Source of the DNA: Candidatus Daviesbacteria bacterium GW2011_GWA1_41_61 | Lineage (GTDB): Bacteria > Patescibacteriota > Microgenomatia > Daviesbacterales > UBA10151 | NCBI GenBank assembly: GCA_000997385.1 | Contig: LCBT01000001.1 | Span: 177,493-241,492, forward strand | Direction of reading: 5' to 3' | DNA length: 64,000 nt | Notes under the pieces: model-generated | Told to the model about the DNA's origin: nothing | What the model saw: only the letters and a program-made list of their open reading frames with translations | Databases searched by the model: none | Part shown: positions 1 to 58,312 of the stretch, piece after piece | How positions within the stretch are numbered: the first letter of the stretch is position 1 | Layout: each line of letters starts with the position of its first letter | Translations under genes and position numbers: made by a program

Positions 1-1543
1 GATAGGCTATCTCATTGCCTTGATGGGTCAACTCCACTAAATACTCTCCCTGGCGGTTGATGCCCGACCAAACGCTGTTGGAATAATCAATGTGGGGAGA
101 AAAGTAACTCACCGGAATATTGACACTGGTTCCTTGAATAAGTCCCACCATAGATCCAGGTAGAGCATTTTGGTTCAACCACCTAACAACCTGGTAATAG
201 GCATTGCCGAAGCTATTCCCATAGTAAGGAATATTAGCCTTTTGGGCCCCCTGTAAACCACCAATAAAAATATTAAAGTAAACATTTTCATTAGGATGAA
301 GGTTGACCATCACTAAAAGATGAGGAATGAATAATAATAAAACAACCATGCCTAAAACCGATTGAGAAAGAAAATTTTTGCCCACCCAACGTTTAAACAA
401 TCGAACCAAGACTTGCGCCCCTAAACCAGACAGAAGCGCCATCGCCGGTAAAAACTCCATAATCTGCCTTACCCCTCCGTAAATTGAACTGCCAGGCAGG
501 CTAACTCTTAAGATAGGAATGATCAGCCAAATTAACCACAAAAGAGCTGTTTTTTCTTTCTCCTTTCTTAAAAAAACACCTCCTACGCCTAAAATTGTTA
601 AAAAGAGGATTATGGGCGGAGTAGTAATGGCAATCCAAGTTATAGGGAAAAGATTAAACCCTCCCCAAGTGAGATAGTGGGGCTGACCTAAACCTCCAGT
701 ACCAATCTCCTTATAATACCTAAAAATATTTAAAGTATGAGCTAAGGGATCTTGCCACAGATATGGCCAAGTAATAAAAAAAACCGCTCCAGCTATAACC
801 GGCGATATAATCAAAAGAAATAAAAAATGTCTGGGAAGTCTGACTACTGCTTTGACGGGATGCAAAATAGCCTGAGGGTATCGCCAAGCCAGCCAAAAAG
901 TCAAAATAAACGGTAAAAATAAGATATTAAATTTAGTCCCCAAGGCTAAAGCAAAAAATAATATAGCCGCCAACAACCACCGCCAGTCATACCTTTTTAA
1001 ACTATTCCAGAAGGCCCAAATTGTTCCAGCATAAAAAGCAGCTTCAGCGGGATCTTTAATATTAAAATGCGATTCGGCAAAAAATAAAGGATAAACCCCC
1101 AAAGAGATACCAGCCACTAAAGCAGCCAATAAACCATAAGATTGAGCAGCAAAAACCACCACCACCAAAACTAACAATGTTCCGCTTAAAATATTAAATA
1201 GATGATAAGATTCAATATCCCCCAAAACTGCCAATTTTTGGTAAAAAATAAAATTGGCAGTAGCAGCTAGTATGCCATTTAAGGGAGGATGACCGCTATC
1301 GTTTTTTATAAAAAATTGACCGGTAAAAGAGTTATCTTGGTAAAAGCTGCGCCGTTTAATAGGTTTCACATCTTGGTAATTTAAATCACCACTTAGAAAG
1401 TAATTTAAATAGGCCTGTCCTCTGGTAAAATGAATTGGCTCGTCCCAGGAGATCCCGTAGTGAGACAGTGTTAAAAACGAGACAATAAAGAAAAGAATCG
1501 GAATTATTAACAATCCCGAAAAATTTTTTAAAGTAATTTTCAT
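1..1543 (-). CDS. GT-C fold membrane glycosyltransferase, ArnT/PMT-like (GT39/GT83-type); C-terminus cut by window edge
   Basis: Open minus-strand frame from ATG 1543..1541 to the window edge. N-terminal TM helix is followed by HYGISWDEPIHFTRG, the first-loop D/E motif of ArnT/PMT-type GT-C enzymes. ATGA overlap with the stop of the upstream methyltransferase. Confidence 0.6.
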   Translation of the reverse strand, partial: MKITLKNFSGLLIIPILFFIVSFLTLSHYGISWDEPIHFTRGQAYLNYFLSGDLNYQDVKPIKRRSFYQDNSFTGQFFIKNDSGHPPLNGILAATANFIFYQKLAVLGDIESYHLFNILSGTLLVLVVVVFAAQSYGLLAALVAGISLGVYPLFFAESHFNIKDPAEAAFYAGTIWAFWNSLKRYDWRWLLAAILFFALALGTKFNILFLPFILTFWLAWRYPQAILHPVKAVVRLPRHFLFLLIISPVIAGAVFFITWPYLWQDPLAHTLNIFRYYKEIGTGGLGQPHYLTWGGFNLFPITWIAITTPPIILFLTILGVGGVFLRKEKEKTALLWLIWLIIPILRVSLPGSSIYGGVRQIMEFLPAMALLSGLGAQVLVRLFKRWVGKNFLSQSVLGMVVLLLFIPHLLVMVNLHPNENVYFNIFIGGLQGAQKANIPYYGNSFGNAYYQVVRWLNQNALPGSMVGLIQGTSVNIPVSYFSPHIDYSNSVWSGINRQGEYLVELTHQGNEIAY

Positions 1544-2322
1544 GCCTTGATTCCACTGTAAGAGATATAAAGGGAAGGTTGAACAAACCACCCGGCTTGG
1601 CTATCAATCTTTTTAATTAACCTTAAAAAAAGACGGGCTAAATGATTGTTAACAAGAGCTGATGCTAAAATAGGAAAAAAGAATACAGTAAAGCCAGGCA
1701 AGCCTTGTCTTTTTACAACCTTTAAATCAAAACTGTGGGCTAGTTGAAAAATTCTGGATGGGCTAAAGCTAACAGCGGGAATTTCACTGTGCTTTTGACC
1801 TCTCAATTTACTAATTAATCCACCTAGGTTAAAAATATTATATCCTAAAGGGTTTCTTTCAATAATCATCAAACGTCCTCCCGGTTTTAAAACCCGGGTA
1901 ATTTCTTTCATGGCTTTTTTCTGATCTTGATCATCTGATAAATACATTAAAGTCGTCACCATAAAAATCATATTAAAGGAGTTATCTTTAAAAGGAAGCT
2001 GACGGACATCGCCTTTAAAAGCTCTACCCCTTGGAGCAAGCTGTTGGTTGTAAAGATCGACATATTTTGGGGCAATATCCACCCCAACAATCTTGATTTT
2101 AGAAAACCTGTTAAGAAGTTCCCCTGACAACCGCCCATAACCACAACCAATATCTAATACCTGAACACTTTCTTTATTTTCCACCTCACTGCTGATCTGT
2201 TCCAACATCCACTGGTGTAAATAATCATTAATGACGGATGGTACTGACTTAAGCAAAACCCCTTCTATTCTAGTACCGTATTTTTGACTTCTTTGCTCCC
2301 AAAATTTTTCCAATGTTTTCAT
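1540..2322 (-). CDS. class I SAM-dependent methyltransferase
   Basis: 260 aa ORF. VLDIGCGYGRLSGELL matches methyltransferase motif I, and downstream acidic motif II is present (IVGVDIAP). Confidence 0.8.
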   Translation of the reverse strand: MKTLEKFWEQRSQKYGTRIEGVLLKSVPSVINDYLHQWMLEQISSEVENKESVQVLDIGCGYGRLSGELLNRFSKIKIVGVDIAPKYVDLYNQQLAPRGRAFKGDVRQLPFKDNSFNMIFMVTTLMYLSDDQDQKKAMKEITRVLKPGGRLMIIERNPLGYNIFNLGGLISKLRGQKHSEIPAVSFSPSRIFQLAHSFDLKVVKRQGLPGFTVFFFPILASALVNNHLARLFLRLIKKIDSQAGWFVQPSLYISYSGIKA

Positions 2323-2323
2323 A

Positions 2324-3244
2324 CTACTTGCTTCTTTTAAAAGAGCTGACTACATCAAATCCAAAAAGTTTAATTACTAAAAGGAACATCAAACATTCAG
2401 CCAAAAACAGGTTAAAACGGAAAGCTAAAGCTAAAAAAGAGGCCAAGGAAAAATCATAAAAAATTTTTAAAAGAAAGGCCAAGGAAAAATCACTCACTCC
2501 TAAACCTCCGGGAGCAACCGGTGTCAAAAAGCCGACAACCCAAGAGGCAGAAAGTAAACCGCTGATATCTAAAATCCGGGACAAGGGGTTATCAACAAAA
2601 GCTGAAATAAGTAAGAAAAAAGCTACCCCGTATAACAAAAAAAAGCCAACGGATAAACCAAGCAAACTTAAATGCCCTCTAAAACCATTTTTATAAATGA
2701 CTTCCGGTAGGTATTTTCCCAAGTAAGGCAATCGGGGCAATAGAGCAAAAACTTTAACTGGTTGGATAAAGACAACGACTGATAAAACAACTGCCGCTAC
2801 TGAAAACAACCATAAAGGAGGAAAAAACTTGGCCGCTATAGGTAAAGCTAAGAGACTGACTATTATCGCGCCGGCTAGATTATAGTAAGCTTCCAAAAAT
2901 ACCGTTGACAGGCCTTCCTTAACTCCTAAGCCTAAACCTTTGGAAAGATAAACCCTAACTACATAATGTAAAACTACGCCTGGGATAAACCTACCAAAGT
3001 TGGAAACAATAAAGACCCGAAAGACTTCTTTAAAAGAAGTTTGAAAAGATATTGCCTGTAAAATTTTATACCAAAAATAAGCTCCCCCCACATAAGTGCT
3101 AGCCAATACCACTAAAGAAGCCAGGAGCAGGATAAAGTTAGCTGAAGCAATCTGATTAAAAACTAAAGTCCACTTTTGGATAATAGTCCAAACTAAAAAA
3201 AACAAAATGGAGGTCGGGACTAATATTTTTAAGCCTTTTTGCAT
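2324..3244 (-). CDS. polytopic membrane protein, UPF0104 / flippase-like (LPG-synthase TM-like) family
   Basis: 306 aa with about 8 predicted TM helices and a PGGLGVSD motif. This family is usually found next to GT2 genes. The ORF starts 1 nt after the methyltransferase start. Confidence 0.45.
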   Translation of the reverse strand: MQKGLKILVPTSILFFLVWTIIQKWTLVFNQIASANFILLLASLVVLASTYVGGAYFWYKILQAISFQTSFKEVFRVFIVSNFGRFIPGVVLHYVVRVYLSKGLGLGVKEGLSTVFLEAYYNLAGAIIVSLLALPIAAKFFPPLWLFSVAAVVLSVVVFIQPVKVFALLPRLPYLGKYLPEVIYKNGFRGHLSLLGLSVGFFLLYGVAFFLLISAFVDNPLSRILDISGLLSASWVVGFLTPVAPGGLGVSDFSLAFLLKIFYDFSLASFLALAFRFNLFLAECLMFLLVIKLFGFDVVSSFKRSK

Positions 3245-3280
3245 AAAATTACCAAGAAGACAGAAGTCTATACATTAAGA

Positions 3281-3309: not shown

Positions 3310-5274
3310 ATGAAAATGCGCCAGCGCCTAAGATTGCCTTCTCTTCTGATTGACGTCCTACTACTGACACCAATACTTATTTTTAGCGCCTGGATTTATC
3401 TCATACCCCCTTTCCAAACATTTGGATATCATCCGTTATTTTCCGACGATGCCATCTTTGCTATCTTAGCCCGTAAGGTTTTAGAACTGGGACCAGTGGG
3501 GGCTTTCCATTTATCCTGGGGACCACTCCTCTCCTGGCTTATGGTTTTTTTAAACAAATTTCTCTCTATACCACTAGAGGATGGAGGAAGAGTTATTACC
3601 GGGATAGCCTTATTTTTAAGAATTATCCCCGCTTATTTTTTAGTCAAACTAATATTAAACAAAACAGCCGCTTTTATTGCCATCATCTTTGTTGCACTTT
3701 ATCCGGTAATAAAAATACCTCAAGAAGCTGCTTTGGCAGAAGGATTATATTCTCTGATTATTTTCAGCGGATTTTTATTTTCCTACCTCGCCCTTAAAAC
3801 AGAAAAAATAGTTTGGTATCTTCTGGCCGGGATTACTTGGGGAGTAGTCTATCTGGCTAGGCTGGAAGGTTGGCTCTTTTTAATACCCTTAATGTTCTTG
3901 ACCGCTTTAAAGCTTTTCTACGAGCCCAAGAAAAAATTGGTAACCATAAAATTGTTGGCAGTTTCTATTCTGGCTACTTTTACTATCTCCCTACCTTATC
4001 TCACTTTTGTCCATCAAGTTTATGGCTCTTGGAATTTAAACCCAAGGTTAAACATTATCATGACAGCGCCTGTTAGTACCTTTGTACCTTACAAGGATTA
4101 TAACGGCATTACTACTTTAGCCCAAGCTTACTTCTCCGGTGACCCTAAATATTACAAATCCAATCTTTGGCATCCCACACCCTTTCTTTTTTGGAGAGCG
4201 CTGGGACGGCATTGGTCAACACTGTCAATTACTCCTACTCTCTACTTTAAATTTTTTAAAGAGACCATTCCGCTACTAACACTATTGGGGGGATTAGGCA
4301 TAGTCTTAACTATTCTGGCTATTTTTCGCCATAAACTTCAACTAATACTTATCGGAATAAGTTTTTTTGCCTTAGGCTTCTCTTTGCTCGACTTTTCCCT
4401 AGTCTCTTTAGAATTTTTATCACCGGTAATATTTAACCCGGAAGCTACTTTTTGGCGGCTTCTTGATCAATTTTGGCGGATGCTCTCCACCAAAGGATAT
4501 TTTCCTGGGATAGCCCGGGATGTTATAGTTATTGTTTCCAGTTTGTCACTGCTGATAATTAAGAGGGGAGAAGTCAAAAAATTCGTGCAGCAGTTTTATC
4601 TGCAAAGACTGAAAATTTATCTACCATTATCTCTGTTCTTCGGCTTTCTACCCCTTTTATTTCATAACTTTGCCACTAAATATGCTGCTTGGGTTGTACC
4701 GGTGCTGGTTATCTTTGCCAGCTTCTTTATCAGCTCAGTTTGTTCCTCACTAATTAGAGTGTTGCCTAAAAAATACCCCTTCTTACCTGCCCTACCGATT
4801 GATAAAATAATTCCCCTTTTGACTGTTTTCAGTCTGTTGTGGATGATTAAGCCATTGGTTGATCAATCTTTAGACACTAAGTATAGCCAATACAAACAAA
4901 ATAATTTTTTTTACGATTTACGAAAAAAGCCTGGTTTAGTCATTTTAAAAGATCATGGACCAGGAGCTAAAATTGCTGTTTTTTATGAAGCTCCGGTGTT
5001 TTATGCTCAGGGAGAACTGTTTTACTTTATGACTGACAGCAATGTTCCACTGGAAGAAACGCTAAATTATCTCGAGGAAAATCAGGTAGATTATCTGGTC
5101 GCCGATAGGGATCAAGCCTATCTGACTCACAAACCACTACGGCCCTTAATGTTGGCAGAAACAAAATTGTCCAACTGGCAGATGATCTACTCTGATCCCC
5201 CGCCTGGCACAGACATCTTGGTAACGGATACCCATACTGATATGCTGGTGACAGTCTGGAAAAGAATAGATTAA
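3310..5274 (+). CDS. GT-C fold membrane glycosyltransferase with C-terminal soluble domain (ArnT/PMT-like)
   Basis: 654 aa. About 12 N-terminal TM helices with FSDDAIFAILARK in the first loop (DD/DE motif). C-terminal ~200 aa is hydrophilic. Confidence 0.5.
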   Translation: MKMRQRLRLPSLLIDVLLLTPILIFSAWIYLIPPFQTFGYHPLFSDDAIFAILARKVLELGPVGAFHLSWGPLLSWLMVFLNKFLSIPLEDGGRVITGIALFLRIIPAYFLVKLILNKTAAFIAIIFVALYPVIKIPQEAALAEGLYSLIIFSGFLFSYLALKTEKIVWYLLAGITWGVVYLARLEGWLFLIPLMFLTALKLFYEPKKKLVTIKLLAVSILATFTISLPYLTFVHQVYGSWNLNPRLNIIMTAPVSTFVPYKDYNGITTLAQAYFSGDPKYYKSNLWHPTPFLFWRALGRHWSTLSITPTLYFKFFKETIPLLTLLGGLGIVLTILAIFRHKLQLILIGISFFALGFSLLDFSLVSLEFLSPVIFNPEATFWRLLDQFWRMLSTKGYFPGIARDVIVIVSSLSLLIIKRGEVKKFVQQFYLQRLKIYLPLSLFFGFLPLLFHNFATKYAAWVVPVLVIFASFFISSVCSSLIRVLPKKYPFLPALPIDKIIPLLTVFSLLWMIKPLVDQSLDTKYSQYKQNNFFYDLRKKPGLVILKDHGPGAKIAVFYEAPVFYAQGELFYFMTDSNVPLEETLNYLEENQVDYLVADRDQAYLTHKPLRPLMLAETKLSNWQMIYSDPPPGTDILVTDTHTDMLVTVWKRID

Positions 5275-5297: not shown

Positions 5298-6320
5298 TTA
5301 TTTATCCTTAAAGCGGTTGGCCAGTAAATTAAAGATGGCTGATAAACGAAGGTCAAGCAGGCTATTATATTCAATAAAACAGGCCCAGCGGCAAGACTTG
5401 CATGGAGTCTGAGGCAAATGACGATAAGCTTCTTTAACCCCCATCTTTAAGCAGTTTTGGCCGGGTAACGATGTGGTCAATCTGGTACAAGGATATAAAT
5501 TCCCCCGGCAGTCTAAAGCTACCATCTTTTTACCGGCTAAACAACTAGGATGGCCTTCGACCTTATCGGAGGAAATATCATTTTTATGATCAGGCCAATT
5601 AGACATTAAACGATAGGTCTCCTGTGAATAAAAAATGCGGTTAGTCTTATTTTTCTTTTCCCTAATAATATCCATCAAAGCTTTTTTAGTCCTATCCTCC
5701 CAAGCCTTAGCCAATTTTAACCCCCCATCACCACGGAACCGGGGATAAAGTGGACTTATTTGAACAAGAGTTTGATATTTTTTGGCCAACTCCAAAAGTC
5801 TGGGCCACTCATTCAAATTAGCATCAGTTAAAGTACAGCAAAAATGAACTGGAATACCGGCTAAAGTTGCTGCTTCAACTGCTGCCAAAGCTTTTTTAAA
5901 TGAACCCTTTCCCCGGTATTTATCGTGGGTTTTTTCGCAGGCACCATCCAAACTTATAGAAAGGTTATTTAAAAGACGTAAAGCCTTTAGATGGTAGGGC
6001 ACTAAAATTCCATTGGAGTTAAGACCGACCTCAAAACCCAAATTTACCGCCATTTTAATTATTTTATCAATATCTTTATGCAGAAGTGGTTCCCCGCCGC
6101 TAATACCCAACCTCCTGACACCTAAATCATAAAATTCCTTAAATATTTGCTTTATTTGCTGGTAAGACAATTCTCCCTTTTCGCTGTAATATTTACCAAA
6201 GCAATAAGAGCAGCGGAGGTTACATCTCTCGGTGATAGTAAACAAAAGGATATAGGGCTTGGCAATAAACGGTAACGCCGAAAGGCCTATTTTGGGAATC
6301 TTCAACTTAAGATTATTCAT
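5298..6320 (-). CDS. radical SAM enzyme with C-terminal SPASM/twitch domain (paralog A)
   Basis: CNLRCSYC (CxxxCxxC) at the N-terminus and GGEPL. The C-terminus carries extra cysteines: CLAGKK...CRGNLYPC...CKSCRWAC. Confidence 0.85.
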   Translation of the reverse strand: MNNLKLKIPKIGLSALPFIAKPYILLFTITERCNLRCSYCFGKYYSEKGELSYQQIKQIFKEFYDLGVRRLGISGGEPLLHKDIDKIIKMAVNLGFEVGLNSNGILVPYHLKALRLLNNLSISLDGACEKTHDKYRGKGSFKKALAAVEAATLAGIPVHFCCTLTDANLNEWPRLLELAKKYQTLVQISPLYPRFRGDGGLKLAKAWEDRTKKALMDIIREKKNKTNRIFYSQETYRLMSNWPDHKNDISSDKVEGHPSCLAGKKMVALDCRGNLYPCTRLTTSLPGQNCLKMGVKEAYRHLPQTPCKSCRWACFIEYNSLLDLRLSAIFNLLANRFKDK

Positions 6321-7762
6321 TATTTAGTAAATCTTTTTAAAACAAAAAAACTGCTGGTAACTAAAAATTCTTTCCAACCCACTCTTACCGGTATAATCTT
6401 TCTCTTTAAGCTATAACCGTTCAAAACATCTTTTAAAAATTTTAACACTGATTTAGGGATTGGCACCTTAAGTAAGATAGGTAAATAGCTTCTGAGAAAG
6501 GGAAAAATTACAATAAAGGTAAAAAGAGAAGCAAATTTTTCAATTTTTTCTCTATCCACGACCTGAATGGGAATTCTTTCAAACCAGGATAAAAATTCTG
6601 TTTCACTAGAGATAAGGTTCATCTTTTTAGCTACTTTACCTAGCTGGGTATCTAAAAACGGTAGACAAAAAGAGACATAAGTGGCATCAACTCCGGCTTT
6701 TAAGTTAAGATCCAAAGTTTGCAGTTCATCTGCAAATGTTGATGTCGGTATCCCTACCATATTATAAGCGCTAATGGCTAAACCATATTTTTTAGTAATA
6801 TTACAAGCCTTGATGATCTGAAAGTTAGTAATATTTTTATTTAAAACTTCTTTTCTGATTCTCTCACTGCCGCACTCTACAGCCAGATGTATACTAACAC
6901 ATCCAGCTTTTTTTAAAAATTTCACAAACCTCTCATCTATAAAAACCACCGAAGTGACTATAGTAAAAGGAAGATTTATTTTCCGGGTGTATTTTTTGGT
7001 AAAGTCCGTCAACCATTGCCTATCAAAAGGAAAGACATCATCAAGAAAATAAAAAAATTTAGCATTAAAATTTCTTTTCAAATCCTCCAATTCAGCTATC
7101 ACATTATCGACAGTTCTGGTCCTGATAATTTTTCCTTTACCCTGATATAAATGATGATAGCGGTGATTAAAACAAAAAGAACAGTTAAAGGGACAACCAC
7201 GGCTGGCCATGACAATTTTGATAGGAGAATATTTAAATTGAGGAAAACTACGAGTCAGGGATCGATCTGGAAAGGGCAGACTATCCAAATCCGCCACCAA
7301 CGGACCAACGCTGTTTTTATAAACTGAGTTTGTAAACTCGCTATTTTTATTTTTTATCCACATATTAGGAACTTTATTGATACTTTGCTTCTGGTCCAGT
7401 TTATCAACCAGTTTGAGTAAGGCAATTTCCCCTTCCCCCCGGCAGATAATATCAATCCCATCCTGATTTATAATTTCCGGGTTATAAGTGGGAGTTGGGC
7501 CTCCCCAAATAATGAGGATTTTGGGAAAAGTTTTTTTCACTTGCTGGGACAAGTTTAAATAATATTTGTAATCAGTGTTCATACAGCTGATGGCAAAAAG
7601 ACCGATATTTTTTTCCTTAATACATTGACTAACTTTTTCAAAAGAGGAATCGGAAAGGAAAACTTGATGACCGGATGTTTTTAAAAAGCTGGATAGATAT
7701 AAAATGCCTAGTGGTTCCATGGCACTATAAACGTCTTTTTTAATGGCAAAAAGAATATTCAT
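6320..7762 (-). CDS. B12-binding (class B) radical SAM enzyme
   Basis: 480 aa. N-terminal Rossmann-like cobalamin-binding region (IIWGGPTPT), then RGCPFNCSFC radical SAM motif. Confidence 0.8.
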   Translation of the reverse strand: MNILFAIKKDVYSAMEPLGILYLSSFLKTSGHQVFLSDSSFEKVSQCIKEKNIGLFAISCMNTDYKYYLNLSQQVKKTFPKILIIWGGPTPTYNPEIINQDGIDIICRGEGEIALLKLVDKLDQKQSINKVPNMWIKNKNSEFTNSVYKNSVGPLVADLDSLPFPDRSLTRSFPQFKYSPIKIVMASRGCPFNCSFCFNHRYHHLYQGKGKIIRTRTVDNVIAELEDLKRNFNAKFFYFLDDVFPFDRQWLTDFTKKYTRKINLPFTIVTSVVFIDERFVKFLKKAGCVSIHLAVECGSERIRKEVLNKNITNFQIIKACNITKKYGLAISAYNMVGIPTSTFADELQTLDLNLKAGVDATYVSFCLPFLDTQLGKVAKKMNLISSETEFLSWFERIPIQVVDREKIEKFASLFTFIVIFPFLRSYLPILLKVPIPKSVLKFLKDVLNGYSLKRKIIPVRVGWKEFLVTSSFFVLKRFTK

Positions 7763-7781
7763 AGTGCATTTTTCAAGTACA

Positions 7782-9849: not shown

Positions 9850-9852
9850 TTT

Positions 9853-14534: not shown

Positions 14535-14721
14535 GGAATGATAATACTACATTCAATCTTCAAGCACTAGCATTTTAAATTTCAACACAGCAGGGATACA
14601 CATTAGGGGTACACATTAAGGAAGTACTGTTTCTTTAGTGCTATCCTCCAAGAAGACCTTTGGCAATTGTTTGAGGATTACACCAAAATGGATTGCTTCT
14701 ACTAACATACTAGGGGGTATT
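14535..14721 (-). promoter_or_regulatory. intergenic region with direct repeat; candidate internal promoter or regulator site
   Basis: The only gap longer than 60 nt in the 27 kb minus-strand gene train. Contains GATACACATTAGGGGTACACATTAAGG, a direct repeat of TACACATTARGG, plus an AT-rich stretch with TTGAAA and TATTAT-like hexamers on the minus strand. Confidence 0.35.
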
Positions 14722-27743: not shown

Positions 27744-27747
27744 TTAC

Positions 27748-30145: not shown

Positions 30146-30149
30146 CGTT

Positions 30150-46233: not shown

Positions 46234-46237
46234 CGAA

Positions 46238-47494: not shown

Positions 47495-47502
47495 TTAGAA
47501 AA

Positions 47503-52553: not shown

Positions 52554-54119
52554 TTAGGGTAATGGGGTGAAAGAACTGCTTTCTAAAGGAAATATTTTAA
52601 ATAATAAAATGGCATCTTGAGGGCGGTTTTCTCCCTTAGCTTTAGGGTATTCTCTCAAAAGTTCCATGTTTTCTAAGGCTTGTGGGAAACGGGATTTGTT
52701 AGCCACAAAATAAGTAGGATGCTCTTTGGCAGCCTGTCTTAGCTCATCAGAGACCTCTGCCCTACCCCCTACTATTGAAATCTTTTTACCTTCTGAAGCT
52801 TCATGGGAATACTTGTCCAGGTAAATCTGCAGCCCATCAGGCAAAGTCCCAAAATACCCTTCCGTCCCCACTACTACCCCTTCTTTCCCAGCCTCCTGGA
52901 TTAAAAACTGGGCAATTTCAGAAAAACCGTAACCGGCGGTCCAATCTTCCAGATAACCTCTCCTTTCACCTTGAGGCAAAGGGACAGCTGCCGGGTTTGT
53001 CAGCAGTTGGAAGCTAAAATAAAGCGGAGATAAAAGCAATACTACCAGCAGCAAGCTGAAACTTAAAAATGGTTTTAAGGGGATCCTTGATCTTAAATAC
53101 TCTACTCCCCAGGCTGCCAGTACGAAAAGCGGCGGTATGGTAAATAGGATATAACGGGCGGTAAAAGTTTTTAAAAGGGCCATCTCAGCTGCCAGAGGTA
53201 TCAGACTCCAGACTAGAACAACTAAAGCCGGGAGGTTTTTAAAAATAAAAGTTAAAGCTATGCCCAAAAAGATAAACAACAGTACCGGCCAGGTTAAAAA
53301 GATCGGAAACCAGTTATTAATGTCCCCCAAATGGGGTAAAAAAGGGTCCAAGGGCCTGCCCACCAAATCCAGGGGTGAAAACATATAGTCCTGATTACGG
53401 GAAGAAAGGTTATTAAAGTTAGGACCCAGCCTTAAGGCGTTATATATCACCAGGCCGATGGTTACAGCCACTGCCCACAGCCCCACCATCTTTAAAAGCC
53501 TGGTCTGCCGTAGCTTAGGAGACCAATCAAAGATTAAAGCGGTCAGGGGCAAAGCCAGAAGACTAAACATCCCCGGAGTTTTAGTTAAAATCCCTCCTCC
53601 TAAAGAAAAACCCAGGATCATCGCTAAATCCAACCTTAATTTTTGAGCCAGCAGTAAGGCTAAATTTAAAGACCAAACGGAAAAGGCTGCCAGCAGGGAA
53701 TCTACCAAAGCCATCCTGTCAAAAAAAACCATTAAAGGGGTGATTACTACCAAAAATGCTCCTAAAAGCCCCACCCTTAAATTAAAAACTCTCCAGCCTA
53801 AAAAACCCACTCCCAGTAAAGTTAGATATCCGGAAAGGACAGATAAGATTCTGCCAGCTAGTAGTGGATCAGCAAAAATTTTAAATAGGGGCATCATGGC
53901 CCACATAAAAAGAGGTGTTTTACCATCAGATAAAGGTAAAAATCTCAGTGTTGGTTCAGCCCTCATTACCTGAGCCCACCTGATATAAATCGCCTCATCA
54001 GCAAAAATTGGCTGTAAAGTTAAATTAGGTAACCTTAAGGAAAAATATAAAGCAGTAATTAATAGGAAGAAGAGTATCTCCCATTGATATCTTTTAAGCA
54101 ACTTAACCATATTTGCCAT
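52554..54119 (-). CDS. ArnT/PMT-like GT-C glycosyltransferase (GT39/GT83), lipid-carrier dependent
   Basis: 521 aa. LTLQPIFADEAIYIRWAQVM first-loop DE motif, about 12 TM helices. Located immediately downstream of, and overlapping, a DPM1/ArnC-like GT2 gene. Confidence 0.65.
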   Translation of the reverse strand: MANMVKLLKRYQWEILFFLLITALYFSLRLPNLTLQPIFADEAIYIRWAQVMRAEPTLRFLPLSDGKTPLFMWAMMPLFKIFADPLLAGRILSVLSGYLTLLGVGFLGWRVFNLRVGLLGAFLVVITPLMVFFDRMALVDSLLAAFSVWSLNLALLLAQKLRLDLAMILGFSLGGGILTKTPGMFSLLALPLTALIFDWSPKLRQTRLLKMVGLWAVAVTIGLVIYNALRLGPNFNNLSSRNQDYMFSPLDLVGRPLDPFLPHLGDINNWFPIFLTWPVLLFIFLGIALTFIFKNLPALVVLVWSLIPLAAEMALLKTFTARYILFTIPPLFVLAAWGVEYLRSRIPLKPFLSFSLLLVVLLLSPLYFSFQLLTNPAAVPLPQGERRGYLEDWTAGYGFSEIAQFLIQEAGKEGVVVGTEGYFGTLPDGLQIYLDKYSHEASEGKKISIVGGRAEVSDELRQAAKEHPTYFVANKSRFPQALENMELLREYPKAKGENRPQDAILLFKIFPLESSSFTPLP

Positions 54120-54849
54120 CTAAATCATCTTTTCTGATCCGACCCATATCTTTTAAAGCCTCCAGTGCATCATGGATCAGTTGGACTCTTTCGGTCCCCA
54201 CATGGTGCCAAGTAATCGGCACTTCAGCAATTTTAAAACCCATTTTTCTGGCTAAAAATAACATCTCAATATCAAAACCAGCATTCACAGCAGCCCCTTT
54301 GGCCTTCATCCCCTGCCAAATTTGTAGCATCTTAGGAAAAACTTCCCTGATTGCTTTTTGGTTAAAGGCTTTAAAACCACATTGGGTATCAGCAAAGGGC
54401 AAACCTAAACTGAGGTTTCGGATAACAGCAAAACCCCAGGCAGAAAGTTTTCTGATTAAAGGGGCCCCTTCCCTGCCCTTTCTAGAACCTATGACCACAT
54501 CAAACCCCTCTTCAAACTTAGGAAAAAATTTCTCTATCTGATTAATAGGGGTGGACTGATCCAGATCAGTAAAAACAATTATTTCACCTGAAGCCTTTAA
54601 CATCCCGCTGATGACTGTTAAAGCTTTACCGCCATGGGGATTCCTGATTAACTTAAAACCCTTTTTGCTTTTAATAAACTGCTCAATCACATCGGCAGTC
54701 TTATCGGTGGAACCGTCATCGACAATCAAGACTTCATAAGGGTAAGCTTGTTTTTCCAGGTAAGAAGAAACTTTATCCAAAACCCCGGAAGAGAGGTTTT
54801 TCTCTTCATTATATGCTGGAATAACTACTGACAGTTTAAGGTTACCCAT
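54103..54849 (-). CDS. GT2 polyprenol-phosphate sugar synthase (DPM1/ArnC-like)
   Basis: LSVVIPAYNEEKNL...VLIVDDGSTDKT, IIVFTDLDQSTP and FADTQCGFKAFNQKAIREVF. Confidence 0.8.
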   Translation of the reverse strand: MGNLKLSVVIPAYNEEKNLSSGVLDKVSSYLEKQAYPYEVLIVDDGSTDKTADVIEQFIKSKKGFKLIRNPHGGKALTVISGMLKASGEIIVFTDLDQSTPINQIEKFFPKFEEGFDVVIGSRKGREGAPLIRKLSAWGFAVIRNLSLGLPFADTQCGFKAFNQKAIREVFPKMLQIWQGMKAKGAAVNAGFDIEMLFLARKMGFKIAEVPITWHHVGTERVQLIHDALEALKDMGRIRKDDLDGKYG

Positions 54850-54914: not shown

Positions 54915-56417
54915 TTATTTTCCTGAAGGGTTGGGGATTAGTTTAAAAACCTTGATACCATCAATTTCCTTAATCCATTCTACCTTAGCCCAACCATAAG
55001 CTGATATTTCATATTTAGGGCTGTTGATGGGGATACACTCCTCATCCTCACAGACCACAAACAACTGATCAGTAATTTCTACCGGCACCACCTTTGGTTT
55101 ATGCCCATAAAGATCAAGGTAATATTGATAAGCTGAATCATAATTACTTTTAGCCAGCAGGGCAAAATTAAAAGGTTGATTATCGGACTGATCAATAATA
55201 AATCTGGCCACCTCCTGAGTTTTACCCAGTTGGTTATTAGGAGGCAAAAGTAAGGGGCTTTTTTGAAAGTTTACAAAACCTAAAACTATCACAAATACCC
55301 CTCCCGCTATTATCTGCCATTTACCCTTCAAATATCCCAATAGCCCTCCAATTAAAAGATAAGGGGCCGGGTTTAAAAAGCCTAAATAGTGATCATAAAT
55401 TTCATTTTTATAAAAAGACAGGCCTATTAATCCTAAAATTAACCAGACACTTAAAACTTTATAATGCCAAGCCAGAGTTTTACCAGCCATCTTAATTTTT
55501 AGGGAAATCAAAAGTGTTAAAACAATCAGCATTGAGACGAGGAGAGTAACCAGCCAATTTGCCCCGCCTATATACCTCCCTATTAATTTCTCATTAAAAA
55601 TATTGATTATCTCCCCTATTCTGGTAATTAAATTAAAACTGACTGCTTCTCCTTTACCAAAAAACATCTCTTGAGCCCCGCGGTAATTTAAAAAGTTATG
55701 GCGGAAATCAAATAGCACTAAGGGAAACATCAAAAGTATAAAGGCCAAAACAGCACCCACAGTACCAGTTAAAAAGAAGCGTTTAGAAGTTTTACTTAAC
55801 AGCTCCATCAGCCAAAGCACTCCGGCAACAGGTACTAAAATTAAAGCTAAATAGTGCATCTGCAAAGCTCCCGCCAGCACCCCGCCGGATAAAATCAACC
55901 ACCGAAAATCCCGGCTTTTGTGGGCTTTATAAAAACCTAGTATTGCCAGTAAGGAGAAAAAAGGGGTGGGATTAGGGTTCCAGGAAAAACGGGAATAATT
56001 AATATTTACCGGGGAAACAGCATAGAGAAAAGAAGATATAAGGGCCGGATATTTACCAAACCACTCCCTGGCTAAATAATAGATCAATCCTACCGCTGCC
56101 ACTCCAATCAAAGCTACCATCCCTGAAGCAGCTACGGGGTTGAGCCAAAAGACAGCCATGGAGACAACCATCATATAGTAATATAAAGGTCCCAAGTAGA
56201 GATTACCAACTGAAGTAGGAGGACCAATAAAGGGCAAATCATGATCTACCAACAAACTTTTGACAATAATAGCATCCCTTCCCTCATCTCCCAAAAAGGT
56301 CATATATTGATCAATTTTGTAAAACCTGAAAAAGGCTGCCAAAAGTAAGATAAAAGATATTAAAAGAAATTCCCCGCGGTTTTGTTTGATCCACTTGATC
56401 ATCTGATCTTCCACCAC
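54915..56417 (-). CDS. GT-C-type polytopic membrane protein (paralog of 15523..17067 and 26289..27743)
   Basis: 500 aa. FLGDEGRDAIIVKSLLVDHDLPFIGPPTSVGNLYLGPLYYY. Confidence 0.55.
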   Translation of the reverse strand: MVEDQMIKWIKQNRGEFLLISFILLLAAFFRFYKIDQYMTFLGDEGRDAIIVKSLLVDHDLPFIGPPTSVGNLYLGPLYYYMMVVSMAVFWLNPVAASGMVALIGVAAVGLIYYLAREWFGKYPALISSFLYAVSPVNINYSRFSWNPNPTPFFSLLAILGFYKAHKSRDFRWLILSGGVLAGALQMHYLALILVPVAGVLWLMELLSKTSKRFFLTGTVGAVLAFILLMFPLVLFDFRHNFLNYRGAQEMFFGKGEAVSFNLITRIGEIINIFNEKLIGRYIGGANWLVTLLVSMLIVLTLLISLKIKMAGKTLAWHYKVLSVWLILGLIGLSFYKNEIYDHYLGFLNPAPYLLIGGLLGYLKGKWQIIAGGVFVIVLGFVNFQKSPLLLPPNNQLGKTQEVARFIIDQSDNQPFNFALLAKSNYDSAYQYYLDLYGHKPKVVPVEITDQLFVVCEDEECIPINSPKYEISAYGWAKVEWIKEIDGIKVFKLIPNPSGK

Positions 56418-57097
56418 AGTTTAAAAAGATCAAGGTATGATTTTATAATCACTTTTGGCTTAACTCCAGTCGGACTACCTGCCAAACGTGGATAGTGATG
56501 AACAGCAACCTGAGCAATTTTAAAACCGGCTTTCTGGGCTTTAATGACAAGTTCGGCATTAATCATACCCCCGATAGTTGATTCAAGAGGCGGGATTTTT
56601 TCCAAAACTTTTTTACTGACCATTTTAAATCCGGTATCAACATCTTTAATATTTAAACCGAAGAAGAGGAAGAGTGACAATGCCCAGCCCTTGGCAGCTA
56701 ACACTCTAAAAAAATTATCACTCCTTTTTACTTTAAAACTGTAAATAACATCAGCTTGGTCAGTCTTTTCCAAAAACTTCGTTACTTCCGAAAAATCAAA
56801 TTGGCCGTCAGCATCGGTATACACTATCCAATCATACTTAGCATTAGAAAAACCTGCCCTAAGGGCATAACCATAACCCCCCTGGGGGAGGTGGACTGTT
56901 TTAATAAAAGGATGCTCTTTAGCTAACGCATCAGTAACTTCAGGACTTTTATCTTTTGACCCATTCTCTACCAGAATGATTTCATATTCTTTAAGAAGCA
57001 GTTTTTGGAGTACCACAATGGCCTTTTCAACAACAAAAGGGACGTTGCTCTCTTCATTATGAACCGGGAAAAAAACTGATAAAGAGTCTGCCTTCAT
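56399..57097 (-). CDS. GT2 polyprenol-phosphate sugar synthase (DPM1-like, soluble)
   Basis: LSVFFPVHNEESNV...IILVENGSKDKS, VYTDADGQFDF and DVDTGFKMVSKKVLEKI. Confidence 0.75.
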   Translation of the reverse strand: MKADSLSVFFPVHNEESNVPFVVEKAIVVLQKLLLKEYEIILVENGSKDKSPEVTDALAKEHPFIKTVHLPQGGYGYALRAGFSNAKYDWIVYTDADGQFDFSEVTKFLEKTDQADVIYSFKVKRSDNFFRVLAAKGWALSLFLFFGLNIKDVDTGFKMVSKKVLEKIPPLESTIGGMINAELVIKAQKAGFKIAQVAVHHYPRLAGSPTGVKPKVIIKSYLDLFKLWWKIR

Positions 57098-57145
57098 CCC
57101 AATAAGTGTAGCACAGATGGCTAATCTTATGCTAACATAACCTCA

Positions 57146-58312
57146 ATGAGTAAAACTGTAAAAGATCTCATCATTATTGCCATTTCTACTTTATTGTTAA
57201 CCTTTTTAGTCTGGCTTCCACACCTGCTCCAGCTTCCCTCCTTTTATGGATTAGATTTTAGCCAAGGGTTTAATACTATCTATCGAAATTTTGATGGCTT
57301 GGAATATGTCATTATTGCCAAAACTTTATATGACCCGCAGGCCATAGCTAGCTTACCTCAATCCTTACCAGCTAATTACTTCGCTGCCCATTTTCCAGGC
57401 TATGCCTTAATAATTTTACTCTTTGCTCCCCTGCTGGGTTTTTTAAAATCAATGCTTTTTACCTCCCTGCTTTTTACCATTCTTTCTGCTGTTACTTTTT
57501 ATTTTTTACTTAAAGATTTTAAACTTAGCTCTCAACCACTCTTTCTGTCACTTCTTTTTCTGCTGCTTCCTGCCAGATGGTTAGTAGTTCACAGTGTTGG
57601 TTCAGCAGAACCCCTCTTTATCTTTTTTGTTTTAGCTGCTGTTTATTGGTTTTTAAAATATGAGCAAACGCTTAAAAGTAAATTGATTTTACTAACCACT
57701 CTTTTTGGAGTACTGGCTCAATTTACCAGACCTCCAGGAATACTGTTATTTATCGCCTTAGCACTTTATGTTGGCTGGAAACTGCTTAATGACAGCAACT
57801 CCAACTTCACCAGAAAAATTAGGAAGACTCTTCCCTATTTCCCTCTATTATTAATTCCAGCTTCCCTTTTAGTAGTCTTTTACTGGTACTCTCTAACCTA
57901 TCAAGACTTTTTTGCTTATTTTCATAGTGGAGATAATATCCATCTGACCTTTCCTCCTTTCCAAGTATTCAATATAAACCAAACTTGGGTAGGAGATATC
58001 TGGCTGGAAGATATTGTTTATATATTTTTACTGGGATTTTTAGGAGGGCTGTTGCTTTTAAAACAGAAATTAATTCTACCAGGAATTTTTGTTCTAACTT
58101 ATCTTTCAGCTGCTATCTTGGTGGCCCACCGGGATATTGCCCGCTATACCTTGCCCATTTTCCCCTTTTTACTGATAGCTTTTGAGAAAGTTTTAATTTC
58201 CAGGGAGTTTAAGATAGCTTTTACTATCATTGCTTTAGGCATATATCTTTATGCTCAAAACTTTATCTTAAATAATACTGCCCCTGTCCCCAGCCTTCAA
58301 GTTTTTAATTAA
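57146..58312 (+). CDS. GT-C membrane protein with PIG-V/GT76-like motif
   Basis: 388 aa polytopic. YRNFDGLEYVIIAKTLY parallels the NFDGEHYLSISIFGY motif in 18335..19513. Confidence 0.4.
   Translation: MSKTVKDLIIIAISTLLLTFLVWLPHLLQLPSFYGLDFSQGFNTIYRNFDGLEYVIIAKTLYDPQAIASLPQSLPANYFAAHFPGYALIILLFAPLLGFLKSMLFTSLLFTILSAVTFYFLLKDFKLSSQPLFLSLLFLLLPARWLVVHSVGSAEPLFIFFVLAAVYWFLKYEQTLKSKLILLTTLFGVLAQFTRPPGILLFIALALYVGWKLLNDSNSNFTRKIRKTLPYFPLLLIPASLLVVFYWYSLTYQDFFAYFHSGDNIHLTFPPFQVFNINQTWVGDIWLEDIVYIFLLGFLGGLLLLKQKLILPGIFVLTYLSAAILVAHRDIARYTLPIFPFLLIAFEKVLISREFKIAFTIIALGIYLYAQNFILNNTAPVPSLQVFN

What the first reader, a model, noticed from the sequence alone, without database searches (positions are those of the whole stretch)
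1..58312. Extreme expansion of GT-C-type membrane glycosyltransferases: about 21 polytopic GT-C-like genes plus 14 GT-A/GT-B genes and 3 flippases in 58 kb
Nearly every gene is glycosylation-related. There are tandem arrays of paralogs: three WDE-motif GT39/83-like genes at 21432-26237, four QIPCRWVPD-family genes at 44995-52523, three D..RD/GPPTS-family genes, and two HDGIWH-family genes. At least five independent polyprenol-phosphate sugar synthases (12395, 14722, 54103, 56399, 61734) are present. Together this suggests a combinatorial machinery for building a complex lipid-linked or protein-linked glycan on the outer face of the membrane. Such density is unusual for ordinary bacterial genomes. 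It fits small-genome CPR/Patescibacteria or DPANN-like organisms that invest heavily in surface glycosylation.
Basis: partly seen in the sequence, partly recalled or inferred. Interest (0 to 1): 0.65.

Follow-up and report, generated by a model that had tools for sequence, protein, structure and literature searches.

The report
Giant surface-sugar gene island in Daviesbacteria
A tiny-genome groundwater bacterium (Candidatus Daviesbacteria) devotes over 70 kb to a conserved island of 21 membrane sugar-transferases, two of which were unannotated and have the fold of the enzyme that attaches sugar chains to proteins in archaea and eukaryotes.

Summary
The window holds 20 complete GT-C membrane glycosyltransferase genes plus one cut at the left edge. 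It also holds 11 GT2 genes, 3 GT4 genes and 2 Wzx flippases. Glycosylation genes cover 80% of the bases.

The island is not an assembly artefact. Paralogs are at most 36% identical. The same gene order recurs in independent assemblies and in 40 related genomes, which average about 8 GT-C genes per 20 kb. The island continues beyond the left edge and exceeds 70 kb, in genomes of 0.8-1.1 Mb.

New here:
- g31 also carries an outward-facing hydrolase/deacetylase-like domain.
- Wzx-g31-g30 is the conserved core of the island.

Best reading: an archaeal/eukaryote-style lipid-linked glycan assembly line ending in an OST-like transferase. The acceptor is unknown, because the WWDXG motif is not conserved across the family.

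The parts
1..1543 (-). g00: 5' part (first 514 of 672 aa) of a PMT_2/PMT GT-C gene (WDE motif); its 3' end lies beyond the window's left edge
   Evidence: L005 10780-12798: PF13231, PF02366
1540..2322 (-). g01: SAM-dependent methyltransferase
   Evidence: Methyltransf_25, 2.6e-23
2324..3244 (-). g02: 7-TM protein with MprF-type LPG_synthase_TM domain; candidate lipid-linked-sugar translocator
   Evidence: PF03706, 1.2e-16
3310..5274 (+). g03: 10-TM GT-C candidate; PMT_2 hit is borderline
   Evidence: 25.3 bits against a cutoff of 26.1
5298..11376 (-). g04-g08: five radical-SAM genes. g04, g06 and g07 are SPASM/twitch-type paralogs; g05 and g08 are B12-binding class B, and g08 is HpnJ-like
   Evidence: The block is conserved and expanded to 8 genes in L048
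11395..12405 (-). g09: GT2 (GT-A), cytoplasmic type
12395..13381 (-). g10: full-length PgfS/ArnC-like polyprenyl-phosphate glycosyltransferase (GT2 plus C-terminal TMs)
   Evidence: PgfS 243 bits, ArnC 166 bits, full-length alignment
13416..14534 (-). g11: GT4 (GT-B)
14722..15513 (-). g12: GT2, DPM1/PpgS/AglJ-like polyprenyl-P sugar synthase candidate
15523..17199 (-). g13: 10-TM GT-C, divergent PMT_2-like
   Evidence: HMM of g21/g22/g38/g40, 4e-17
17064..18347 (-). g14: Wzx/MOP flippase
   Evidence: Polysacc_synt, 2e-21
18335..19513 (-). g15: GT-C, PIG-V-like (Mannosyl_trans2)
   Evidence: 35.1 bits, above cutoff
19526..21422 (-). g16 (GT4) and g17 (GT2)
21432..26237 (-). g18, g19, g20: three tandem PMT_2/PMT GT-C paralogs (WDE motif), 30-31% identical
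26289..29277 (-). g21, g22: PMT_2 GT-C
29267..32020 (-). g23 (GT2), g24 (GT4), g25 (GT2)
32153..34540 (+). g26: YfhO-family GT-C (795 aa)
   Evidence: 1e-28; weak PgfM2 hit
34545..36286 (-). g27, g28: GT2
36356..38080 (-). g29: PMT_2-type GT-C, paralog of g18-g20
   Evidence: 7e-52 to g20
38077..40068 (-). g30: 663-aa OST-like GT-C with 3 extra N-terminal TMs, a 13-TM core and an AglB-like C-terminal domain. It hits no Pfam/NCBIfam model. Motifs: HGHDGIWH, YH, WYDTG
40071..43550 (-). g31: 1159 aa. Signal anchor, then an extracytoplasmic DUF3863-type (beta/alpha)-barrel hydrolase/deacetylase-like domain (residues ~25-470), then an OST-like GT-C module (36% identical to g30)
43543..44991 (-). 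g32: Wzx/MOP flippase; overlaps the g31 start by 8 nt
   Evidence: Polysacc_synt_3, 8e-51
44995..46323 (-). g33: PTPS_related GT-C (QIPCRWVPD motif); lacks the central ~160 residues of its paralogs
46238..47494 (-). g34: GT87/PIG-M-like GT-C
   Evidence: orthologs carry PF09594 and PF05007
47503..52523 (-). g35, g36, g37: three tandem PTPS_related GT-C paralogs, 29-36% identical
52554..54849 (-). g39 (DPMS/GtrB/ArnC-like GT2), overlapping by 17 nt with g38 (PMT_2 GT-C): a donor-synthase/GT-C pair
54915..57097 (-). g41 (ArnC/Dol-P-hexose-transferase-like GT2), overlapping by 19 nt with g40 (PMT_2 GT-C): a second donor-synthase/GT-C pair
57146..58312 (+). g42: 9-TM GT-C related to the PIG-V-like g15 family
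   Evidence: hhalign 97.2%, 4.7e-11

Best explanation
The window is the larger part of a >70-kb envelope-glycan assembly island. The island is vertically inherited and conserved across Candidatus Daviesbacteria and related Microgenomates.

Proposed mechanism:
1. Soluble GT2/GT4 enzymes build an oligosaccharide on a polyprenyl phosphate carrier at the cytoplasmic face.
2. Five DPM1/ArnC/GtrB-type GT2 enzymes make polyprenyl-monophosphate sugars.
3. Two Wzx flippases, and possibly g02 and the GtrA domain of g46, move these lipids to the outer face.
4. About 18 GT-C enzymes from four or five families (PMT_2, PTPS_related, YfhO, PIG-V/PIG-M/GT87) extend and branch the glycan outside the cell using the lipid-monophosphate sugars.
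5. The STT3/AglB/PglB-like pair g31/g30, encoded directly downstream of the Wzx gene g32, performs the terminal transfer to the final acceptor. That acceptor is most likely a surface protein. The outward-facing hydrolase/deacetylase-like domain of g31 processes the glycan.
6. Radical-SAM/B12 enzymes and methyltransferases tailor the sugars.

What is shown: family or fold assignments, gene order, translational coupling and conservation. What is inferred: order of action, donors, en bloc transfer and the acceptor.
For: Family assignments:
- All 21 GT-C genes are assigned by family or fold.
- The five GT2s have their best matches in polyprenyl-P glycosyltransferases. g10 scores 243 bits to PgfS over its full length. 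The best PDB hits of g39 are P. furiosus DPMS, GtrB and ArnC.
- The GT2-to-PMT_2 pairs g41/g40 and g39/g38 overlap by 19 and 17 nt.

g30 and g31:
- The g30 model is confident (pLDDT 86, pTM 0.89).
- In Foldseek, the top 15 hits are 12 OST catalytic subunits and 3 DPY19 C-mannosyltransferase chains; both act on peptides.
- The most conserved part of the g30 C-terminal domain is a loop plus helix where OSTs carry WWDXG. In g30 this reads W569-Y-D-T-G, followed by D587-x-x-Q-x-x-I-M.
- g32-g31-g30 are adjacent, with spacings of -8 and +2 nt, in this genome. They keep this order in almost all of the 40 related loci.

Architecture:
- Five donor synthases serve about 18 GT-C enzymes, so donors are shared. 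This is expected of an assembly line, as with ALG3/9/12 or Emb/Aft, rather than of one-to-one decorator pairs.
- Orthologs are 50-65% identical across species, against at most 36% between paralogs. This indicates a conserved pathway, not a hypervariable antigen locus.
Against: - No sequence method links g30/g31 to STT3. Pfam finds nothing in the window genes, in the 26 members of A1 or in 10 distant members. PDB profile searches find nothing.
- The WWDXG-like 'WYDTG' is confined to the g30 subfamily. Across 133 representatives the site reads Y-x-(S/T)-T-(A/S)-Y, and g31 has 'YETTS'. A canonical N-X-S/T pocket is therefore not established.
- No priming phosphoglycosyltransferase (PF00953 or PF02397) is present in the window or in the 8 kb to its left. 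This is compatible only with a monophosphate-linked (euryarchaeal AglJ-type) start or with a primer encoded elsewhere.
- No acceptor protein, glycan chemistry or expression data exist.
- The Wzx-g31 fusion protein was seen on only one short contig.
Confidence: 0.55

Rival explanations
1. Lipoglycan or secondary cell-wall polysaccharide factory of the Corynebacterineae type (LM/LAM/arabinogalactan-like). A lipid- or wall-anchored primer is elongated outside the cell by many GT-C enzymes. In this reading g30/g31 are glycan-elongating or branching GT-C enzymes (AftA/AftB/Emb-like) with a carbohydrate-binding C-terminal domain, not protein-modifying OSTs.
For: - GT87/PIG-M-like (g34) and PIG-V-like (g15, g42) enzymes are the families of mycobacterial PimE/Mpt-type mannosyltransferases.
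- WWDXG is not conserved across the g30/g31 family.
- The DUF3863/CE4/GH57-like domain of g31 suggests a glycan substrate.
- Many GT-C enzymes share few donor synthases, as in mycobacteria.
Against: - There is no Emb-type CBM and no AftD-like architecture.
Confidence: 0.3
2. A collection of independent two- or three-component decorators (GtrABC, CsbB-YfhO, PgfS-PgfM, ArnC-ArnT type). Each GT2 makes one lipid-P-sugar, and each GT-C adds a single sugar to an existing wall polymer or surface protein. Together they give a combinatorial or variable surface, for example to evade phage or to recognise hosts.
For: - There are two canonical, translationally coupled GT2+PMT_2 pairs (g41/g40 and g39/g38).
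- g10 is PgfS-like and g26 is YfhO/PgfM2-like.
- The copy number of PTPS_related and PMT_2 paralogs varies between genomes.
Against: - Only 5 donor synthases serve about 18 GT-C enzymes.
- Nine further cytoplasmic GT2/GT4 enzymes and two Wzx flippases imply a lipid-linked oligosaccharide.
- The core gene order and orthologs are conserved at 50-65% identity across 40 genomes, unlike variable serotype-converting loci.
Confidence: 0.2
3. Artefact: a collapsed or chimeric assembly of repeats, or polytopic proteins that are really transporters.
For: None found.
Against: - Paralogs are at most 36% identical.
- The region is identical in GCA_000996555.1, GCA_000994095.1 and several independent ENA/Logan assemblies.
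- Synteny is conserved in 40 species-level genomes, including a closed 820-kb chromosome.
- All polytopic genes resolve to GT-C, Wzx or MprF-TM families.
Confidence: 0.01

Closest known systems
Archaeal N-glycosylation pathway of Haloferax volcanii (AglJ/G/I/E/D, flippase-like AglR, GT-C AglS, methyltransferase AglP, OST AglB)
   Same: - DPM1-like GT2 enzymes charge a polyprenyl monophosphate; AglJ- and AglG-type NCBIfam hits occur for g12, g39, g41, g46 and g09.
- A MOP/Wzx-type translocator is present.
- A GT-C enzyme adds sugar from lipid-P-sugar outside the cell.
- A SAM methyltransferase is present.
- The terminal enzyme has the AglB fold and the AglB-type C-terminal domain.
- No PP-priming enzyme is needed.
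   Different: - This island has 21 GT-C genes instead of one or two.
- g30/g31 are not detectable as STT3/AglB by sequence and lack a family-wide WWDXG motif.
- g31 carries an extra DUF3863 domain.
- The host is a bacterium.
- Radical-SAM tailoring genes are present.
- All NCBIfam scores are far below the equivalog cutoffs.
Eukaryotic ER N-glycan pathway (ALG1/2/11, RFT1, ALG3/9/12/6/8/10, DPM1/ALG5, STT3)
   Different: - There is no ALG-family sequence membership; the GT-C families here are PMT_2, PTPS_related, YfhO and GT87/PIG-V-like.
- There are no accessory OST subunits.
- The acceptor is unproven.
Mycobacterial/corynebacterial LM/LAM and arabinogalactan GT-C set (PimE, MptA-C, EmbA-C, AftA-D) with Ppm1/DPA donors
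   Same: - It is the only well-known bacterial case of many (>10) GT-C enzymes sharing a few lipid-P-sugar donors to build a glycan outside the membrane.
- The GT87/PIG-M-like family is shared.
- AftA, AftB and AftD are structural hits for g30.
   Different: - There the genes are scattered over a 4.4-Mb genome. Here 21 lie in one island of a genome of about 1 Mb.
- No Emb/Aft sequence homology was detected.
- The OST-like fold is the better match for g30.
Campylobacter pgl system (PglB)
   Different: - pgl has no extracytoplasmic GT-C elongation, uses PglC priming and an ABC-type PglK flippase, and has a canonical WWDYG/MI motif.
- PglB is found by the Pfam STT3 model (established knowledge); g30/g31 are not.
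Two/three-component lipid-P-sugar systems: ArnC-ArnD-ArnT, GtrA/B/C, CsbB-YfhO, S. mutans PgfS-PgfM1-PgfE-PgfM2
   Same: - g41/g40 and g39/g38 are GT2+PMT_2 pairs of this design.
- g10 is PgfS/ArnC-like over its full length.
- g26 is YfhO/PgfM2-like.
- g46 has a GtrA domain.
- The g31 N-terminal domain resembles ArnD-type CE4 folds.
   Different: - The scale differs: 21 GT-C genes.
- Wzx flippases, many cytoplasmic GTs and an OST-like enzyme are present.
- The g31 domain lacks the CE4 His-His-Asp signature; no invariant His pair occurs in A3.

Membership tests
GT-C superfamily (applied to the 21 polytopic genes) | Significant match to a GT-C-clan Pfam model, or to a paralog or ortholog that has one | tested here: met
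   - Pfam hits for 15 genes; g03 is borderline at 25.3 bits against a cutoff of 26.1.
- g35 by BLAST, g13 by HMM, g42 by hhalign at 97%, and g34 via orthologs carrying PF09594/PF05007.
- That PTPS_related belongs to the GT-C clan is from my own knowledge. It is supported by the cross-hits of g33 and g37 to PMT_2 and YfhO.
GT-C superfamily (applied to the 21 polytopic genes) | Polytopic topology (8-13 TM) with a conserved acidic residue in the first extracytoplasmic loop | tested here: met
   - A hydropathy scan gives 6-13 TM segments.
- Acidic motifs found: WDE in g18-g20 and g00, RWVPD in g33/g36/g37, D..RD in g13/g40, and HDG(I/V)WH in g30/g31 with D136 present in 133 of 133 family members.
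STT3/AglB/PglB oligosaccharyltransferases (g30, g31) | Match to the family's sequence model (Pfam STT3) or to solved OST sequences | tested here: not met
   - No Pfam hit for g30 or g31, for the 26 members of A1 or for 10 distant members.
- No PDB hit at E<=10 with profiles A1, A2 or A4.
STT3/AglB/PglB oligosaccharyltransferases (g30, g31) | 13-TM GT-C core whose closest structural neighbours are OSTs | tested here: met
- Foldseek: 12 of the top 15 hits are OST catalytic subunits (E 1e-9 to 3e-7, TM-score 0.44-0.51).
- This was a predicted model, not an experimental structure.
STT3/AglB/PglB oligosaccharyltransferases (g30, g31) | C-terminal extracytoplasmic globular domain of the AglB/PglB 'central core' type | tested here: met
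STT3/AglB/PglB oligosaccharyltransferases (g30, g31) | WWDXG motif, which recognises the +2 Ser/Thr | tested here: not met
   - g30 has W569-Y-D-T-G in a loop-then-helix context.
- g31 has Y-E-T-T-S.
- Across 133 representatives the site is Y79/W20, variable, S/T/D, T88, A/S/G.
The motif is therefore partly present in the g30 subfamily only.
STT3/AglB/PglB oligosaccharyltransferases (g30, g31) | DK/MI motif and catalytic acidic residues (EL1 Asp, EL2 Asp, EL5 Glu) in equivalent 3-D positions | tested here: inconclusive
   - Candidate residues exist: D136, D172, E248, D374-R375 in a low-confidence EL5-like loop, and D587-x-x-Q-x-x-I-M.
- No residue-level superposition could be obtained with these tools.
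STT3/AglB/PglB oligosaccharyltransferases (g30, g31) | Transfers a lipid-linked oligosaccharide to Asn of a protein | not testable with these tools
   This needs biochemistry or glycoproteomics.
Polyprenyl-phosphate glycosyltransferases (DPM1/GtrB/ArnC/PgfS) for g10, g12, g39, g41, g46 | GT2 catalytic domain whose closest characterised relatives are lipid-phosphate sugar synthases | tested here: met
   - NCBIfam best hits are PgfS, ArnC, Dol-P-hexose transferase, PpgS and AglJ. All are below the equivalog cutoffs; g10 scores 243 bits over its full length.
- The PDB best hits of g39 are DPMS 5mlz (6e-17), GtrB 5ekp and ArnC.
- The other GT2s (g09, g17, g23, g25, g28) have different best hits.
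Wzx/MOP flippases (g14, g32) | Polysacc_synt / Polysacc_synt_3 domain and about 10-12 TM segments | tested here: met
   g14 scores 2e-21 and g32 scores 8e-51. The hydropathy scan gives 9-11 TM segments.
Class B (B12-binding) radical-SAM enzymes (g05, g08) | N-terminal B12-binding domain plus a radical-SAM core | tested here: met
   - g05 has PF02310 (6e-17) plus PF04055. g08 has PF02310 (3e-7, just below cutoff) plus PF04055.
- g08 scores 180 bits to HpnJ against a cutoff of 578, so it is not an HpnJ equivalog.
- The substrate is not testable here.

The most novel reading that the evidence does not exclude
Daviesbacteria, and Microgenomates more widely, run a complete archaeal/eukaryote-style protein N-glycosylation pathway. 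In it a lipid-linked glycan is elongated outside the cell by a battery of GT-C enzymes. It is then transferred by a deeply divergent STT3-like oligosaccharyltransferase family that no sequence model recognises. That family has at least 1,759 clusters at 50% identity and is sometimes fused to a glycan-processing domain. This would be a third, independent bacterial home for OST-type glycosylation. It would also provide bacterial out-groups for the origin of STT3 and of the luminal ALG enzymes.
Probability: 0.3. Interest if true: 0.85.

Novelty: new variant of a known kind. Interest (0 to 1): 0.64.

Why it matters
CPR bacteria are thought to live attached to other cells and have genomes of about 1 Mb stripped of most biosynthesis. 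Daviesbacteria nevertheless keep 6-9% of the genome for one conserved glycan factory built mainly from GT-C enzymes. This points to a surface glycan that is central to their biology, such as attachment, host recognition, phage defence or envelope stability.

The island is also a compact natural catalogue of about five GT-C families. It reveals a large, unannotated protein family with an oligosaccharyltransferase fold. If that family glycosylates proteins, three things follow:
- The known phylogenetic range of OST-type glycosylation in bacteria widens.
- New single-subunit OSTs with non-canonical acceptor pockets become available for glyco-engineering.
- Bacterial comparators become available for models of how the eukaryotic/archaeal N-glycosylation pathway arose.

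The embedded set of 5-8 radical-SAM enzymes suggests unusual sugar chemistry.

Tried and rejected
- Sequence routes to classify g30/g31 all found nothing: Pfam and NCBIfam on the proteins, Pfam on 26 family members and on 10 distant members, PDB profile searches with narrow, C-terminal-only and diverse profiles, and hhalign against the other GT-C families of the window (maximum 27% probability). Only fold comparison worked.
- The AFDB Foldseek library was unavailable.
- I first read 'WYDTG' as a WWDXG equivalent. The family-wide profile showed it is subfamily-specific, so I downgraded the N-OST claim.
- The Wzx-g31 fusion protein P0381 looked like Rosetta-stone evidence. It occurs on a single 8.8-kb contig, and the two genes overlap by 8 nt here, so a frameshift artefact cannot be excluded.
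- hhalign could not place g34 (maximum 35% probability). Ortholog Pfam annotations resolved it.
- PADLOC hits of the radical-SAM proteins to pVip are generic radical-SAM similarity. The NCBIfam viperin score is far below its cutoff, so a defence role was rejected.
- Literature searches found no paper describing this island or an OST in CPR bacteria. The library is incomplete, so this is absence of evidence only.
- The first hhalign batch timed out and was rerun in smaller pieces.
- No tRNA genes are present. Composition is uniform at 35-43% GC, with no sign of a foreign island.

Full report
**1. What is in the window**

ORF calling gives 47 complete ORFs. They are tightly packed, and most lie on the minus strand in three runs. 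One more minus-strand ORF (1-1543) runs off the left edge. There are no tRNAs. GC content is uniform at 35-43%.

Exact-protein look-ups place the window on LCAQ01000004.1, a 374.5-kb contig of GCA_000996555.1. Identical copies occur in several independent assemblies of the same groundwater population. Source names identify Candidatus Daviesbacteria bacterium GW2011_GWA1_41_61 and sibling bins, in the Microgenomates group of Patescibacteria. Flanking genes such as FtsX/FtsE, RF-1 and TsaD are bacterial.

**2. Check of the observation**

GT-C genes:
- Pfam assigns PMT_2/PMT to g18-g22, g38 and g40, and to g29 exactly at the cutoff (26.1 bits). The g03 hit is just below it (25.3 bits).
- Pfam assigns Mannosyl_trans2 (PIG-V) to g15, YfhO to g26, and PTPS_related to g33, g36 and g37.
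- g35 is a clear paralog of g36/g37.
- g13 joins the PMT_2-like group with a local HMM (4e-17).
- g42 matches the g15 family by profile-profile comparison (97% probability).
- Orthologs of g34 carry the GT87 and PIG-M domains.
- The edge ORF is the first 514 residues of a 672-aa PMT_2 protein; the rest lies beyond the window's left edge.
- g30 and g31 have the GT-C fold (section 4).

Other classes:
- There are 11 GT2 and 3 GT4 genes.
- There are two Wzx flippases (g14, g32).
- g02 has an MprF-type TM domain.
- g46 is a GT2 fused to a GtrA domain.
The other GT2s do not.

GT-C genes occupy 56% of the window, and glycosylation genes occupy 80%.

**3. Not an artefact, not strain-specific**

- Paralogs share at most 36% identity, so collapsed repeats are excluded.
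- A scan of one genome per species with the g30 family returned 40 loci. Nearly all are Daviesbacteria or Microgenomates, and one is a closed 820,589-bp chromosome. Several carry placeholder or wrong taxon names.
- Gene order is conserved in almost all of them: g38 - g37/36/35/34 - g32 - g31 - g30 - g29 - (g26) - g28 - (g27) - g25 - g24 - ... - g22 - g20 - g19/18. Orthologs are 50-65% identical.
- These loci average 8.2 GT-C-like ORFs out of 13.7 ORFs per roughly 20 kb.
- The duplications therefore predate the radiation of the group.
- To the left of the window the island continues with the PMT_2 gene, four GT2s, a methyltransferase and a GT4. It therefore exceeds 70 kb.
- Related genomes have contigs or chromosomes of 0.8-1.1 Mb, so the island is about 6-9% of the genome.

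**4. The 'HDGIWH' pair (g30, g31)**

Sequence level:
- g30 (663 aa) and g31 (1159 aa) hit no Pfam or NCBIfam model.
- UniRef labels g30 only as 'RgtA/B/C/D-like domain-containing' and g31 as uncharacterised.
- g30 orthologs are about 60% identical across Daviesbacteria.
- An exhaustive profile search finds 1,759 clusters (at 50% identity) with E<=1e-3, and 934 with E<=1e-30. They come in three architectures of about 560, 650 and 1030-1160 aa.

Structure of g30:
- The AlphaFold2 model is confident (pLDDT 86, pTM 0.89).
- In Foldseek, 12 of the top 15 hits are OST catalytic subunits. The other three are the peptide-modifying DPY19.

Family-wide invariant residues:
- D136 and H140 in the first outside loop.
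- Y167-H168, E248 and N262.
- D374-R375 in a low-confidence EL5-like loop.
- N412 and R416.
- Q456, N462 and Q465.
- D587.

Limits of the OST assignment:
- g30 has W-Y-D-T-G where OSTs carry WWDXG.
- This is not conserved in g31 ('YETTS') or family-wide (Y-x-S/T-T-A/S-Y).
- No sequence method connects the family to STT3.
- I therefore call it an OST-like fold family, not a member of the STT3 family. I leave the acceptor open.

**5. g31's extra domain**

- Residues ~25-470 of g31 follow a signal anchor and are predicted to face outward.
- Homologs carry DUF3863.
- The profile hits PDB 3lm3 (3.4e-6).
- The CE4 His-His-Asp signature is not evident among the invariant residues, which are mostly acidic or aromatic. 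A glycan hydrolase- or esterase-type activity is plausible, but its nature is unknown.
- g32 (Wzx), g31 and g30 are separated by -8 and +2 nt and stay adjacent across genomes.
- One metagenomic protein fuses Wzx to a g31 homolog. It is seen only once, so this is weak evidence.

**6. Mechanism proposed**

Shown: families, folds, gene order, coupling and conservation.

Inferred:
1. Cytoplasmic GT2/GT4 enzymes assemble a lipid-linked oligosaccharide.
2. Five DPM1/ArnC-type GT2s provide lipid-monophosphate sugars.
3. Wzx, and possibly g02 and the GtrA domain, translocate the lipids.
4. About 18 GT-C enzymes elongate and branch the glycan outside the cell.
5. g31/g30 carry out terminal transfer, and the g31 domain processes the glycan.
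6. Radical-SAM/B12 enzymes and methyltransferases tailor the sugars.

Supporting arguments:
- Five donor synthases against about 18 GT-C enzymes argues for shared donors, that is, an assembly line.
- The absence of a WecA/PglC-type primer in the window and its left flank fits a monophosphate start of the euryarchaeal AglJ type, or a primer encoded elsewhere.

The closest analogues are:
- The Haloferax Agl pathway.
- The eukaryotic ALG/OST pathway.
- The mycobacterial LM/LAM/AG GT-C set.
- ArnC/D/T, Gtr, CsbB-YfhO and Pgf systems, for the two GT2+PMT_2 pairs.

**7. Rivals**

- (a) A lipoglycan or wall polysaccharide factory in which g30/g31 act on glycans. It is supported by the missing WWDXG, the GT87/PIG-V families and the Aft structural hits.
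- (b) A set of independent single-sugar decorators. It is supported by the two coupled pairs and the variable paralog numbers. It is weakened by the donor:GT-C ratio, the many cytoplasmic GTs, the Wzx genes and the strong synteny.
- (c) An artefact. This is refuted.

**8. Radical-SAM block**

- g04, g06 and g07 are 33-34% identical SPASM/twitch-type paralogs.
- g05 and g08 are B12-binding class B enzymes.
- g08 is closest to HpnJ, which rearranges a sugar ring, but scores far below its cutoff.
- A related contig (L048, g08 82% identical) keeps the order g18-g17-g16-g15-g14-g12-g11-g09-g08...g03 and has eight radical-SAM genes.
- The block is therefore an integral part of the island. Its substrates are unknown.

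**9. Novelty and score**

- The genome has been public since 2015, and the individual GT families are ordinary.
- The literature searches found no description of this island, of GT-C hyper-density in Microgenomates, or of an OST-like enzyme in CPR bacteria. The library is incomplete, so this is not proof of novelty.
- I rate it a new variant of a known kind (lipid-linked glycan assembly with GT-C elongation), containing a previously unrecognised OST-fold family.
- Interest is 0.64.
- The most novel reading is true protein N-glycosylation by a cryptic STT3-like family. I give it about 0.3 probability and 0.85 interest if true.

Noticed in passing
window 5298-11376 (-); L048 10001-20822: Five consecutive radical-SAM genes lie inside the glycan island: three SPASM/twitch-type and two B12-binding class B, with g08 HpnJ-like. 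A related Daviesbacteria contig has eight in the same context.
   Followed up: partly
window 1-1543 (-); L005/L007 beyond the left edge: The island continues past the left edge of the window. It adds a 672-aa PMT_2 gene (cut by the edge), four more GT2 genes (one PgfS/ArnC-like on the opposite strand), a second methyltransferase and a GT4.
   Followed up: partly
window 58340-61670: At the right border of the island there is a MazG-radical-SAM fusion (g43, 501 aa), a NUDIX hydrolase with an N-terminal winged-helix-like region (g44) and a Pol-beta-type nucleotidyltransferase (g45). PADLOC gives no defence-system assignment, only one weak NUDIX hit. The trio is conserved next to g42/g46 in the sibling assemblies. 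Its role is unknown; nucleotide-sugar metabolism is one possibility.
   Followed up: partly
window 3310-5274 (+); L005 7213-8946, L006 7141-8973, L007 3076-5040: The g03 ortholog is called at 654, 610 or 577 aa in near-identical assemblies of the same population. This suggests start-site or frameshift differences, or strain variation, in this borderline GT-C gene.
   Followed up: no
L051 1868-6787 (protein P0381): A single 1639-aa predicted protein fuses a Wzx flippase to a g31-type protein (DUF3863 domain plus OST-like module). It was seen on only one 8.8-kb contig, so it may be a frameshift artefact of the 8-nt gene overlap.
   Followed up: partly
window 44995-46323 (-): g33 is a shortened PTPS_related paralog. 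It matches HMM positions 8-255 and 414-556 of its family and lacks about 160 central residues. Its annotated TTG start overlaps g34 by 86 nt, so the real start is probably further downstream.
   Followed up: no
window 15523-17199 / 17064-18347 (-): g13 (GTG start) overlaps g14 by 136 nt, and homology to other GT-C proteins begins near residue 49. The true g13 start is probably downstream. The only sizeable non-coding gaps in the minus-strand runs are 14535-14721 (187 nt) and 62928-63467 (540 nt). These may hold promoters.
   Followed up: no
L008-L047 record titles: Many public MAG records holding clearly Daviesbacteria-type loci are titled 'uncultured Gammaproteobacteria bacterium' (binchicken co-assemblies). 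One is titled 'Candidatus Bathyarchaeia archaeon' (L028), and a protein hit is named 'Actinobacteria bacterium'. These are likely placeholder or mis-binned taxonomy.
   Followed up: no
proteins P0268-P0360: The DUF3863-like domain of g31 also occurs in stand-alone proteins of about 590-690 aa in Woesebacteria, Amesbacteria, Levybacteria and Shapirobacteria. These carry a different, Cys-containing C-terminal region and are not fused to the OST-like module.
   Followed up: no
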